Below are positions 142 through 15,958 of a stretch of DNA of 64,000 nucleotides, in pieces. Both the position numbers and the translations under genes were made by a program. Source of the DNA: Eledone cirrhosa (Eukaryota). The stretch spans positions 86,986,001-87,050,000 of the forward strand of contig OZ024747.1 of NCBI GenBank assembly GCA_964016885.1. Direction: 5' to 3'. Under the pieces are notes generated by a model. That model was not told where the DNA came from, ran no database searches, and worked only from the letters and a program-made list of their open reading frames with translations. How positions within the stretch are numbered: position 1 is the stretch's first letter; every line of letters starts with the position of its first letter.

Positions 142-186
142 AGCTGACAAGGCCTTGTTTCGCATTTATTGATGCTTATCAAAGCC
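142..186 (-). ncRNA. Type I hammerhead ribozyme, U3-A8 core variant
   Basis: Minus strand: ggct TTGATAA gcat-caataa-atgc GAA acaagg-ccttgt C agct; stems I, II and III all pair; GUC site. Confidence 0.65.
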
Positions 187-456
187 AACTACTGTTTGCT
201 GAAATTAAAGTAAGTGATTCTATCACTACTCTAAAACAATAACATAAGGTCTTCGAAATGCTTTTAATTAAGCATACAATGTATTGCAAAATACACTGTA
301 TATACATTCATATATATATAGCTATTTCAGAGCACCAATTCTAATTTTCAATTTCTGCTTGACCGGCAACCGCTCTGTATAATCAGTTCCTGATTATTTA
401 CTAGAATTCTATCAGAAACAAACATCCACGATTTCAGCAGACAGGGGGAGTAGTTT

Positions 457-500
457 ACTTTGATAAGCACCAATAAATGCGAAACAAGGCCTTGTCAGCT
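457..500 (+). ncRNA. Second copy of the U3-A8 hammerhead, opposite orientation, weaker stem I
   Basis: act TTGATAA gca-ccaataaa-tgc GAA acaagg-ccttgt C agct. Confidence 0.5.
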
Positions 501-755
501 TTATCTCCCCCTGTTTGCTGAAATTAAAGTAAGTGAGTCTGTCACTACTCTAAAACAATAGCATAAGGTCTTAGAAATGCTTTTAATTAAGCATACAGTG
601 TATTGAAAAATGCACTATATATATACATTCATATATATATATATATATATTTATATATATATATAAATATATATATATATATAAATATATATATATATAT
701 ATAAAAATATTAAGAGAGTAAAACAAAGAATCCTTTAATACATCAAAAGTTTTTA

Positions 756-800
756 TTAGCCGACAATGTTTCGTCCTATTAAGGACTCATCAGGGCAATC
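756..800 (-). ncRNA. Minimal type I hammerhead ribozyme at the 3' end of the Penelope-like element
   Basis: Minus strand: attgcc CTGATGA gtcct-taat-aggac GAA aca-t-tgt C ggctaat; canonical core, GUC site, sense to the PLE ORF. Confidence 0.9.
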
Positions 801-887
801 AAAAATATATATATATATATTTATATTAGAAAGTGAGGTTTTTTTTACAAAATGAAAAATAACCGAGGTGTCCTACACGAGTGGAAG

Positions 888-1257
888 TATAAAGAAAAAG
901 GGATGAAATCGAAAATGCAACTGAAGTCTTATTTTTTTTTTAAATATATATATTTATTTGGTTCCTTTACCGGTTTCGCAGTTCTTCTGCTTTTCAAAAG
1001 GTGAGTTGAGATGGAGGGTCTGTGGTTTTTCTCACATCTGGTTGGTCTCTAAATGTTACTTGTTTTATATGGAAAACCTGGCTCGAAAACCAGGTTTTTC
1101 GAGAAGTAATTTGATTGGTTTGTCAATAATTATAATAAATTTCGCGCCAGTTCGCGTTACAATAGTTCTTCAAATAAGAGAGGGGGGTTGTCACAGGTTG
1201 TTTTTTCATATATGAGTGTTTGAATTTCTTTTTACTTGAAAAAATGAGGCTCACGAA
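888..1257. repeat. Pseudo-LTR segment (3' copy)
   Basis: Near-identical reverse complement of 5146-5522; gives the twin spurious ORFs 958-1215(+) and 5188-5451(-). Confidence 0.95.
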
Positions 1258-12105: not shown

Positions 12106-12370
12106 TGAATGTAAACCTTGTCTTTTATCTGTGTATTATTGTGTATATTTCTAAAGATAGTTTTTTCAAAGAATCTCAATTCTTTAAAATCCCTTGACAA
12201 ATTACCTCTACCCATCCACAAAAATAACCACCTTCCTCAACCACCAGAAAACATATATTTACAACCGTTTTACAAGGCTTTCCTGGTGATTTCTTTCGAA
12301 TTAAACAGTTCTCTACTAGTGTATTGAGAACCTTACTTACTGTGCTTACCCCGATTGAACCCGAAACTCA
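12106..12370 (+). mobile_element. PLE pseudo-LTR 3' end of the same family as 6310-6460, with decayed hammerhead
   Basis: gtattgagaaccttacttactgtgcttaccccgattgaacccg matches the reverse complement of ~6320-6366; core CTGGTGA...TAAAcag at 12283-12308. Confidence 0.7.
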
Positions 12371-12624
12371 CACACACACACACACATATATATATATATA
12401 AGATATGGGAAAATAATATATATATATATATATATATATATATATATATATATATATATATATATATAATATATAGTAAGAAACACAGTAAACCGTGTGT
12501 CTAAAATTACAAGGGTTGAAAAACCACATATGCTTGAAATATTTAACCAAGAAACAGACAGAATGACAAAATGAAAATAAAAATATATTATCATAATAAT
12601 ACAAACCGCCTCAATAACCATTAT

Positions 12625-12706
12625 ATCTCTCGGACAGATTATCCCTAATCTGTTTCGCCCTGAGTGTGTTTGTAACAGATAATCCTGGGCTTCATCAGCG
12701 AGAGAT
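12625..12706 (-). ncRNA. Type I hammerhead ribozyme with long stems
   Basis: atctctcg CTGATGA a gccc...gggc GAA acagatta-ggga-taatctgt C cgagagat; 8-bp stems I and III; lies in a TA-flanked module at ~12478-12912. Confidence 0.9.
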
Positions 12707-13912
12707 TGCGATTAAATGTCACAAACACTATTTGCCAACGTTCACACAGAAAGATGAATTTATCACCTCGTGCTCCGCCAGTCAAACGTGGTAAGCGCGT
12801 ATTGAACAGAAATAACAGTCCAACACGCACAACTTAATAGCTCAACTTGTAAGGGAGCAGAAATATATATATATGAATTAGAACCCTGTAACCATTAAGC
12901 TCTAAGTATTTCATATATATATATATATATATATATATATATATATATATATATATATATATATGTGTGTGCGTGTGTGTGTGTGTGAGTGTGTGTGTGC
13001 TTGCTTGCGTATGGTTGTGCATTGCATCCAACGTTTATTATCGTCTCCCTAGTTAGTGGTGTTTATTGTTGAATGTGTATTGCAACCCTTATGGCGCAGG
13101 TGTAGCTACCGACATGGTAATTAAACTTTTCATACAGATGCACGAACACACATATACTAATACACATAACATACGCACATATATGTACATCTTTGTGTGT
13201 ATCAATATATATCTCATTTGATATTCCTCTGTGGTCTAAATGTATGTTGTTTTACCGAATGATAATATTATTATTAATATTATTATTATTGTCATTATTA
13301 TTATTATTATTATTATTATTATTATTATCTTTTACGCGTGTGGATGATCAAATATTTTTATCTTAGAAAAATGGAAATATGGCACTTCGACGTGTGAGTA
13401 GCAGCTTTACAGCATTATTCTACTTTATTGTAGGTGCTACTAATAGATATATTATATGTAACTGTTTCTTGGATATTGGCCACAAGGACATATTTCATTA
13501 CATAGGCGGTAAAGTCATTAGGGCATCAAATTAAATGTCTTGCTATTTGTTCTGGATCACTGTACCCTGAGTTCAAATACTTTCCGAAGTCAACTTTGCT
13601 TTTCATCTATTCGAGGTCGATAAATAAAGTACCAGCCCAGGGGGAATGTATTAACGGAATTGTTAAACATTTGGACGAGATTGACATTGTGTTACTGAAC
13701 CACTGACATATATCATATAAGTTATAGTCGATTGAATTTACGACATAAGTGAAACTTAATCTATCCATTTTATTTTCTTAAACCCGTAACTCCTGGTGGT
13801 GTCGTAGGGACGGCATAGTGGCATATCATGTCTCGTGTTCAGTTTAAAGCCTGACGAAGCCCATCTACTCCTCAGGTGTGAACATAGCCAATATCTTCCA
13901 GGGAGAGAGGGT

Positions 13913-14480
13913 TATATATATATATGTGTGTATGTATGTGTTATATGAGGGTTATATATATATATATATATATATATAAATATATATATATAAATATATA
14001 TATATATATATATATATATATTCTACCACCTTAATCTTTAATATATATATATATATATATATATATGATATGTATGTGTGTATATATATATATATATATA
14101 TATATATATATATAAATGAAAGGTATAGAAATTGTTTTAGCGAATATATATATATATGATATGTATGCGTATATATATATATATATCTGATATGTATGTA
14201 TATATATATCTGATATGTATGTATATATATATATATATATATGTATGTGTGTGTATATATATATATATATATATATATACATATATATGTATGTGTGTGT
14301 ATATATATATATATATATATATATGTATGTGTGTGTGTGTATATATATATATATATATATATATATATGTATGTGTGTGTATATATATATATATATATAT
14401 GTATGTGTGTGTATATATATATATATATATATATATATATATATATGTATGTGTGTATATATATATATATATATATATAT
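13913..14480. repeat. Compound (TA)n/(TG)n microsatellite
   Basis: Seen directly. Confidence 0.95.
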
Positions 14481-15958
14481 AGTGAAAAATTGAACGGGAA
14501 CAAATCAGAGAGGCAGTACGAACAAAGGTTTATTAATTTCACGCTCTTGAGAGTGGGGTGGTGGTGGGGAACGACGTTTCGGGCATAAGCCCTTCTTCAG
14601 GTGAAAAGTGTGTGGGAAGAGAGTTCAATGGGTGTGTAGGGGAGTGGTGGAGAGACATATAGCAAAAAGGGGTGAGAGGAAACGGTGCAAATGAAATTAA
14701 AAATAAAGGCATGATCAAAATATAATTAAAATGGGGTAAAACAGGTGGTGGAAGGGTGTGGGGCGTGTAGGGGTGGTAGCGGGTGGAGTGGGGAGAGGAA
14801 GACGGGGTATCCGATCGGGGAGGGCTGAAGGTGGTGTGTGTGTGTAGGTGTACGTGTGTGTGTGTGTGTGTGTATGTGAAATCAAGGGTTGGGGGAAGAA
14901 CGGGGTTGCATGTTCAGGAAGAGGTCTGTGTGGGGTGGGGTGTAGGTCGGAGTGTGTGTGCGTGTGTGGATAGAGGGGTGGGGGTAGAGGATTCCGGAGG
15001 CTGAATGTGCAAATATGTGGTGGTACGCACGTGTGTGTGTGGTGTTTATGCGTGTTGTGGATGTAGGTGGCGTGTGGGAAAAAAAATGTTTTGGGGTGTG
15101 TGTCTGGGGTGAGTCATAAAGGTAATTCCGTAAAAAGATGTGGTGGAATGCTGAGTAAAATCCTGGGATGCGGTAGATTCTCGGGATCAAGGTTCACATA
15201 TGTGTAATCCGTGAAGAGATTGGTCGGAAGAGGGGAGATGTGCGGTGCGCGCGCAACAGGAAGTGGTCAGAGGGTCAAGGCAGGAAGAGGGTTGTGTGTC
15301 TGTGTGCGCGGGGAGGTGGTCAGAGAGCATAGCAGCAGTAGGGTAGAATGGTAAGTGAAGGTGTGTCAGTGTGTGCGGAGGTGCGGTGGACAGGGGAGAG
15401 GATGGGTAGGTGTGAAAGTTGGAGTGAGGAGGGGTGTGTGTGTATTAGTAGAGGTGTTAGTGGGATGAGTCAGTGTTTGAGAAAGGTGTGGGTGGAGCGG
15501 AGAGAGAAGGGTGTGGGGGACGATGGAGGGAGTGTAGTGTACTGATGTGTGTGTGTGGTGAAGGGGGTGTTAGTGGGTGTTAGTATACTGGAGGTGGAGA
15601 AAGGGTTGAATGCTGGTGTGAGTGGGGGTCAGTGGTGGTAGGGTGTGTAGTGGGTGGTGTAAGAGGGTGTGTGTGTACGTGTGTGTAGGGTTGGGGGTGT
15701 TAGTGATGTTAGTTGCGTGTAGAGTGGGTGGTGTAAGTGGGTGTGTGTGTGTTCGTGTGCTTGGGGTCAGGGGGTGTTAGTCGTGTTAGTTGCGGGGTGG
15801 TGTGGTGGATGTGTGGGGGTAAGGGTTAGTGGTGGTAGTAGGGTGTGTGTTTAGTGTGAGCGTGTGTATATATGTACCGGTGGATGTGTGCGTGTGATAA
15901 GGAGGGGGGAGGAGAAGAAGGGAGGGATGTTAGTATGTTAGTTGGATATGTGTGTGTA
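14481..15958 (-). mobile_element. Probable PLE 3' UTR/pseudo-LTR (CA-rich on minus) with HHR-like motif at 14537-14606
   Basis: tttcac CTGAAGA a gggc-ttat-gccc GAAACGTC ... gtgaaa; same GT-rich composition as the 1260-2040 UTR; TA-flanked. Confidence 0.6.

What the first reader, a model, noticed from the sequence alone, without database searches (positions are those of the whole stretch)
142..14606. Dense array of at least eight hammerhead motifs in 15 kb, almost all on one strand, each near a (TA)n tract
Seen: motifs at 142-186(-), 457-500(+), 756-800(-), 5797-5851(-), 6400-6450(-), 10143-10187(-), 12625-12706(-), 14537-14606(-), plus a decayed one at ~12283(+). Apart from the first pair their stems are unrelated, so several families are involved. 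I found no complete one in the remaining ~49 kb. Established: PLE ends carry type I HHRs and some clades favour microsatellites. Inference: a (TA)n landing pad with repeated, orientation-biased PLE or retrozyme insertion; a minus-strand read-through RNA would be cut into defined pieces.
Basis: partly seen in the sequence, partly recalled or inferred. Interest (0 to 1): 0.8.

Follow-up and report, generated by a model that had tools for sequence, protein, structure and literature searches.

The report
Ribozyme retroelements piled in TA repeats
This 15-kb stretch holds the ends of at least seven different, highly repeated jumping-gene families that carry hammerhead (self-cutting RNA) motifs and likely landed one after another in the same TA repeats; it is an unusually dense patch of a pattern found all over this animal genome, and its one-strand skew is within chance.

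Summary
The motifs are real. Two have only a 2-bp stem I, and two more were missed (964-, 5408+), both in the terminal repeats of a young Penelope-like element (PLE). None lies in the other 49 kb. Every motif belongs to a dispersed, high-copy family: PLE 3' ends, or 320-530-bp tandem retrozyme-type units. The genome holds about 190,000 such motifs (one per 16 kb). Nearness to (TA)n is genome-wide (45 of 49 insertions, against 27% of random positions). The cluster is an upper-tail pile-up: 7 insertions in 15 kb, more than any of 160 control stretches. These elements cluster generally (2.6-fold), and rough extrapolation gives hundreds of such nests. Strand bias is not significant (8:3; pooled co-orientation elsewhere 23:17). 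Cutting of a read-through RNA is unsupported: most motifs are predicted to need a same-family partner, and no RNA data were available. The scan has noted similar clusters elsewhere in this genome. Verdict: known biology, locally dense.

The parts
89..615 (.). Family A: one head-to-head insertion of a ~320-bp retrozyme-type unit (bounds approximate)
   Evidence: Self-blast 89-205 vs 554-431 inverted; 2,218 first-look candidates, best other copy 93-94%; 319-bp spacing in L002
142..186 (-). Type I hammerhead, U3-A8 core, stems 4/4/5 bp
   Evidence: compensatory changes among relatives
457..500 (+). Decayed copy of the same motif in the inverted arm; stem I only 2 bp
700..805 (-). Family B: 5'-truncated 3' end with a canonical type I hammerhead at 759-796
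   Evidence: fixed end abuts (TA)n in 9 of 9 other loci
826..5522 (-). P1: young Penelope-like element, 5'-truncated, with inverted 377-bp pseudo-LTRs and a ~60-nt tail at the left end only
   Evidence: 888-1257 vs 5522-5146, 96.8%; ends; 40 of 40 scored copies 99-100% identical
2048..4375 (-). P1 ORF2, 775 aa: reverse transcriptase, CX4CxxC linker, GIY-YIG endonuclease
   Evidence: Pfam RVT_1 E=1.3e-6 (28.7 bits, cutoff 29.6), GIY-YIG E=3e-6 (27.9, cutoff 22.6)
4285..5163 (-). P1 ORF1, truncated here, about 400 aa in fuller copies; overlaps ORF2 in the -1 frame
   Evidence: no Pfam hit
964..1001 (-).
5408..5445 (+).
5649..5965 (-). Family C end with a hammerhead at 5797-5851 (bounds approximate)
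   Evidence: 4,238 exact genome matches of its 37-nt core, 0 in control
6316..6480 (-). Family D end with a hammerhead at 6400-6450 (U.U at the base of stem II)
   Evidence: 13 hits in 11 of 120 random stretches
6700..7670 (+). Broken PLE RT/endonuclease fragment with a CxCX5C linker, as described for the Hydra clade
   Evidence: Translation; motif definition in PMC8557442
8343..9984 (.). 1.6-kb impure (TA)n tract; further tracts at 616-703, 805-826, 5519-5648, 6192-6312, 12386-12475, 12913-12964, 13953-14481, 15957-16019
9890..10253 (-). Family E: partial 484-531-bp retrozyme-type unit with a hammerhead at 10143-10187 (U.U at the base of stem II)
   Evidence: 1,516 candidates, 98-99%; spacing; covariation
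10255..12100 (+). Broken LINE with AP endonuclease; a LINE 3' piece also lies at about 7670-8290
   Evidence: Exo_endo_phos_2, E=4.8e-12
12270..12370 (+). F: decayed motif of a D-related family, two core changes
12476..12910 (-). Family G: one ~472-bp retrozyme-type unit with a hammerhead at 12625-12706 (stems 8/4/7 bp, extra A after A9)
   Evidence: 1,399 candidates, 97-100%
14482..15956 (-). Family H: long 3' UTR of a coding PLE with a minimal motif at 14571-14602 (2-bp stem I, same in the family)
   Evidence: 2,785 candidates; a GIY-YIG-like C-terminus precedes this UTR in L186, L188, L189, L193 (family resemblance recalled); fixed end abuts (TA)n in 9 of 9 loci

Best explanation
The cluster is a nest of at least seven independent insertions of high-copy hammerhead-bearing elements (Penelope-like element ends and short tandem retrozyme-type units) whose 3' ends abut (TA)n tracts and which likely arrived one after another by target-primed reverse transcription at those tracts. 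Shown: the motifs, their families, the fixed 3' ends at (TA)n, the head-to-head arms, and general clustering of such elements. Inferred: a PLE GIY-YIG endonuclease nicks (TA)n, and the RT copies the element's RNA from its hammerhead-proximal 3' end, mostly stopping early. Each insertion would leave (TA)n on both sides, so targets multiply and later elements land beside earlier ones (A|TA|B|TA|P1|TA|C). The ribozymes would serve their own element's RNA, not this locus. Orientation is set per insertion and the skew is likely chance.
For: Each motif belongs to a dispersed family with over a thousand first-look candidates or matches, or 13 hits in 120 random stretches for D. Nearest copies elsewhere range from 93-94% (A) to about 100% (P1, G), so arrivals were spread in time. 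Background: 76 motifs in 59 insertions in 120 random 10-kb stretches, about 190,000 per genome, bootstrap 137,000-247,000. One subclass has 108,513 whole-genome matches against 222 in the control, at 36.2 per Mb against 35.8 in the sample. 45 of 49 background insertions lie within 300 nt of (TA)6+, against 27% of random positions. Within 1.5 kb of an anchor element, other families occur 23 times against 8.8 expected, P=5e-5, 56 loci. The first 12 kb is 70-100% repeat-covered per 4-kb bin, against 16-33% at 28-52 kb. Adjacent same-family motifs are head-to-head in 17 of 21 and 23 of 26 pairs, the PLE pattern described in PMC8557442 and PMC3846280. Decoy cores give 0-2 hits against 69 (C3-G8) and 7 (U3-A8).
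Against: The window is denser than every control. Random stretches reach at most 3 insertions and 5 motifs per 10 kb (window 5 and 6), and 20 hand-picked hot stretches at most 4 insertions or 6 motifs per 15 kb (window 7 and 8). TA-tract number alone does not explain it: 11 TA loci predict 0.9 insertions, Poisson P=4e-5 for a fixed window. 'Hundreds of such nests' is extrapolated beyond the data (about 350 and about 290). One of three co-orientation samples was skewed (12:3, p=0.035). The three nearest single motifs in the 40 kb to the left are also minus, 9:1 over about 55 kb with a boundary chosen afterwards. No empty-site allele was seen, and mobilisation of A, E and G by a PLE is not shown.
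Confidence: 0.85

Rival explanations
1. Same nest, but the minus skew is real because the region lies in a plus-strand transcript (an intron), where sense-strand ribozymes and poly(A) signals are purged by selection.
For: Two of the three plus-strand motifs are decayed (457, 12283), while 7 of 8 minus-strand motifs pass the descriptor. 9:1 over about 55 kb. 12:3 co-orientation in one sample. Vertebrate retrozymes are reported to avoid introns (10.64898/2026.07.22.740005).
Against: No plus-strand host gene was identified; the one gene seen in the window (BTB ORF, 36713-38596) is on the minus strand. Two other samples gave 7:10 and 4:4; pooled p=0.43. An intact plus-strand motif remains at 5408.
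Confidence: 0.1
2. One reading: a selected or functional locus (piRNA-cluster-like trap) whose minus-strand read-through RNA is cut by the ribozymes into defined pieces of about 0.2-4.8 kb.
For: Density above all 160 control stretches. 7 of 8 descriptor-passing motifs are on the minus strand. G, A and D have a stem III of 3-7 bp and could act alone (inference).
Against: P1, C, E and H motifs have tiny palindromic stems III with different palindromes, so single unlike copies could not pair (sequence; dimer need and low activity per PMC4209133). The motifs are ordinary, partly decaying copies of dispersed families. The skew is not significant.
Confidence: 0.04
3. The motifs are chance matches in AT-rich, low-complexity DNA, or one duplicated element.
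For: Rfam scores only one of them, below its gathering threshold. Free folding does not give the full three-stem fold for most.
Against: Shuffle and decoy controls are near zero. Compensatory changes: 5 of 14 pairs for E relatives, 4 of 12 for A relatives (rows mostly chosen by the descriptor, so partly circular). Families are distinct and dispersed.
Confidence: 0.01

Closest known systems
EN+ Penelope-like elements with pLTR hammerheads (Neptune/Nematis and Hydra clades; PMC8557442 passages, PMC4209133 passages, PMC3846280 passages)
   Same: RT plus C-terminal GIY-YIG, CX2-5CxxC or CxCX5C linker, inverted pLTR with one-sided tail, heavy 5' truncation, (TA)n targets, minimal hammerheads including U3-A8 and bulged-base variants, opposite-strand motif pairs 100-700 bp apart.
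   Different: Only the host and scale: many families stacked in one 15-kb nest. Clade placement was not tested by a tree.
Metazoan non-LTR retrozymes (PMC7229834 passages; 10.64898/2026.07.22.740005 parts 1-2 of 5)
   Same: Non-coding tandem units with one type I hammerhead each (A 319 bp, G 472 bp, E 484-531 bp). The U.U pair at the base of helix II in E and D is as in axolotl HHR_Amex2.
   Different: E and G units are somewhat longer than the 150-450 bp stated in PMC7229834. The window holds single or inverted copies, not same-strand tandems. Circular RNA was not tested. The estimated 190,000 motifs in 3.0 Gb exceed the axolotl's 'up to 120,000'.
Unistrand piRNA clusters (recalled, no call)
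   Same: Dense stack of transposon fragments from many families.
   Different: No significant strand bias; the two LINE pieces and one PLE fragment lie on the plus strand; no small-RNA data.

Membership tests
Type I hammerhead ribozyme | Conserved core (CUGANGA or U3-A8 variant, GAAA, UH) in type I order | tested here: met
   10 of 11 sites; 12283 fails
Type I hammerhead ribozyme | Three stems around the core, stem I of 3 bp or more | tested here: met
   8 of 11 sites; 457, 14571 and 12283 fail
Type I hammerhead ribozyme | Covariation in the stems | tested here: met
   Tested for families E and A only; rows mostly pre-selected by the descriptor
Type I hammerhead ribozyme | Rfam RF00163 gathering score | tested here: not met
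   Best 31.7 bits against 34; only 755-799 among the rows shown
Type I hammerhead ribozyme | Site-specific self-cleavage | not testable with these tools
   Needs an in vitro assay
EN+ Penelope-like element (P1) | RT followed by C-terminal GIY-YIG endonuclease | tested here: met
   (RT score just under Pfam's cutoff, GIY-YIG above)
EN+ Penelope-like element (P1) | Direct or inverted pseudo-LTRs with hammerhead and one-sided tail | tested here: met
Neptune/Nematis clade (P1) | CX2-5CxxC linker before the endonuclease | tested here: met
   CX4CxxC in the ORF2 translation; definition
Neptune/Nematis or Hydra clade | Placement in an RT phylogeny | not tested
Non-LTR retrozyme (families A, E, G) | Short non-coding tandem units, one type I hammerhead per unit | tested here: met
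   Same-strand tandems seen in other loci
Non-LTR retrozyme (window copies) | Two or more consecutive units with complete motifs ('active' in Li et al. 2026) | tested here: not met
   No same-strand, same-family pair in the window
Non-LTR retrozyme | Expressed as monomeric linear and circular RNA | not testable with these tools
   No RNA run listed
Unistrand piRNA cluster (recalled) | Strong one-strand orientation of inserted elements | tested here: inconclusive
   8:3, 7:1 and 6:1; p=0.07-0.23
Unistrand piRNA cluster (recalled) | Uniquely mapping piRNAs | not testable with these tools
   No small-RNA data

The most novel reading that the evidence does not exclude
Nests like this are self-amplifying (TA)n traps that are read as long single-strand RNAs and cut by their captured ribozymes into defined fragments that feed small-RNA silencing: ribozyme-processed transposon traps, in a genome with about 190,000 hammerheads.
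Probability: 0.05. Interest if true: 0.75.

Novelty: new member of a known kind. Interest (0 to 1): 0.27.

Why it matters
The locus itself is a tidy example of known behaviour. What has value is the scale: about 190,000 hammerhead motifs from many young families, more than the axolotl count in PMC7229834. My two searches for an octopus hammerhead census listed none. That the host is octopus-like is my inference from genome size and repeat make-up. The genome would allow well-powered tests of PLE target choice, and of whether sense-strand ribozymes are purged from introns.

Tried and rejected
First descriptor missed short palindromic stems III. It was revised after I had seen the window's motifs, so it favours the window over the controls and the cluster's rank is, if anything, overstated. 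Random controls: 120 of 140 drawn stretches were fetched; contigs 16, 18, 19, 25-27, 29 upward and small contigs were not in the draw, and a further 40 stretches meant to fill that gap could not be fetched, so the tail on those contigs is unsampled. The repeat finder was swamped by (TA)n. The DNA search for family C found nothing, not even itself (common words are skipped); the pattern search then gave 4,238. No RNA holder was listed; laying contigs of unlabelled runs on 9990-12910 and 24600-41500 gave no information on expression, cut sites or a host gene. A rearranged type-SGC hammerhead (PMC10085705, passages) was read up as a lead; I ran no SGC search, and the listed motifs fit type I order. 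A long-range stem I for motif H was considered and dropped because it leaves no UH at the cut site. The idea that D and F are two ends of one insertion was dropped: no direct self-blast hit. A general co-orientation rule, suggested by 12:3, failed in two further samples. PMC5785218 (dimeric PLE hammerheads) is not held; only its title in a reference list was seen. Supplements of PMC8557442 (Hydra and other consensus sequences) were not opened and could name some of these families; bioRxiv supplements are closed.
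Full report
Check of the observation. I built a type I hammerhead descriptor and applied its final form alike to the window and to controls. It was revised after I saw the window's motifs, which favours the window. It finds 8 motifs in bases 1-15,000 and none in 15,001-64,000. Shuffled controls give about 1 hit per 1.2 Mb against 76 real. Broken-core decoys give 0-2 hits against 69 for C3-G8 and 7 for U3-A8. Relatives of E and A show double changes that keep pairing in 5 of 14 and 4 of 12 pairs (rows mostly pre-selected). 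Rfam reports only 755-799, below its gathering score, among the 150 of 205 rows shown.

What the motifs belong to. The window is G000:C7:86,986,001-87,050,000 in a 3.0-Gb assembly; an octopus-like host is my inference. 964 and 5408 lie in the 377-bp inverted pseudo-LTRs (96.8%) of element P1, which encodes RT, a CX4CxxC linker and a GIY-YIG endonuclease. It has a tail at one end only, and 40 of 40 scored copies are 99-100% identical. 14571 ends the long 3' UTR of another coding PLE family, H. 142 and 457 are the two arms of one head-to-head insertion of a 319-bp unit. 10143 and 12625 belong to young non-coding units of 484-531 and 472 bp that form tandems elsewhere. 759, 5797 and 6400 are short 3' ends of dispersed families; their full-length parents were not identified. 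A broken PLE fragment at 6700-7670 has the CxCX5C linker given for the Hydra clade, and two LINE pieces fill the gaps.

The (TA)n link. It is real but general. 45 of 49 background insertions lie within 300 nt of (TA)6+, against 27% of random positions. The fixed 3' end runs into (TA)n in 9 of 9 other loci for B and 9 of 9 for H. P1's tail end does so in 12 of 18 occurrences; the other 6 continue into ORF1. (TA)n targeting by PLEs with linker zinc fingers is in print (PMC8557442, passages).

Is the density special? Background is 76 motifs in 59 insertions over 120 random 10-kb stretches, about 190,000 per genome (137,000-247,000). A whole-genome count of one subclass, 108,513 against 222 in the control, matches the sample rate (36.2 against 35.8 per Mb) and scales to about 192,000. 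The window's 5 insertions per 10 kb and 7 per 15 kb exceed all 120 random, 20 neighbouring and 20 hand-picked dense stretches, and the number of TA tracts alone does not account for it. But clustering is a general property: other-family insertions are 2.6-fold enriched within 1.5 kb of an anchor (23 against 8.8). Two rough extrapolations give about 300 comparable nests. Over the whole 64 kb, 7 insertions against 3.1 expected gives P=0.04. Earlier notes of this scan describe similar clusters in the same genome; these are unchecked leads.

Strand. Co-orientation of different families nearby was 12:3 in the 10-kb stretches, 7:10 in anchored loci and 4:4 in the listed C1 matches, pooled 23:17, p=0.43. 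Against my reading: the three nearest single motifs in the 40 kb to the left are also minus, and two of the three plus-strand motifs are decayed. That would fit purging from a plus-strand transcript, but no such gene was found.

Mechanism. Most likely a PLE endonuclease nicks (TA)n and the RT copies element RNA from its 3' end, often from both DNA ends, giving truncated ends and head-to-head arms (17 of 21 and 23 of 26 adjacent same-family pairs). Each insertion would leave (TA)n on both sides, so later elements land beside earlier ones; the differing ages (93% to 100% identity to nearest copies) fit serial arrival. These steps are inferred. The ribozymes would process their own element's RNA. 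P1, C, E and H have tiny palindromic stems III with different palindromes. Such motifs need a same-family partner and cut weakly in vitro (PMC4209133, passages), so a mixed read-through RNA would be cut at few sites. No RNA run was listed, so expression is untested.

Comparison and verdict. The variants are all described: U3-A8, a bulged base before helix II and a 2-bp helix I (PMC4209133), and U.U at the base of helix II (PMC7229834, passages). Retrozymes as non-autonomous PLE derivatives are argued in 10.64898/2026.07.22.740005 (parts 1-2 of 5 read). Searches for octopus with hammerhead listed no census. The finding is a new, dense instance of a known kind; interest 0.27.

Noticed in passing
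window:4285-4375 (-); L213, L151, L215, L228-L234: P1's ORF1 (about 400 aa in fuller copies) overlaps the RT ORF in the -1 frame with an in-phase U-UUU-UUA heptamer. The same heptamer sits in phase in relatives at 92%, 51% and 35-38% protein identity (430 genome matches to a pattern for such relatives, 0 in control). Likely a programmed -1 frameshift; it also reads as a 3' splice site. PMC8557442's Fig. 1 legend already notes an ORF1 frameshift in PLEs.
   Followed up: partly
window:119-203 and 431-523; L002, L003, L005: Family A's head-to-head junction falls in a 12-nt inverted repeat that flanks the hammerhead, so the ribozyme looks flipped between copies. This fits fold-back or template switching at a hairpin; the loci were found with a junction-bearing query, so the sample is biased.
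   Followed up: partly
random stretches L035-L154: Position 10.1-11.1 of the hammerhead is A-U in 25, U.U in 20 and G-C in only 19 of 76 motifs; U.U recurs in several unrelated families.
   Followed up: partly
window:36713-38596 (-): Intronless 627-aa ORF with an N-terminal BTB domain (E=1.8e-12), in single-copy DNA; the only host gene seen in the window.
   Followed up: no
window:16022-17194 (-) and 54107-57698 (-): Two copies (94% alike) of an RTE-like LINE (name recalled) whose RT region carries a cysteine-rich insert.
   Followed up: no
window:10255-10420 (+): The LINE next to element E begins with a CCCH-like cysteine/histidine motif upstream of its AP endonuclease (motif name recalled).
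   Followed up: no
window:8343-9984: The long TA tract changes its impurities along its length (TAAATATAC-type, then TAAA-type, then TTTA-type), i.e. it has strand polarity; whether that steers insertion orientation was not tested.
   Followed up: no
window:20835-22071: 31-bp tandem array of about 41 copies.
   Followed up: no
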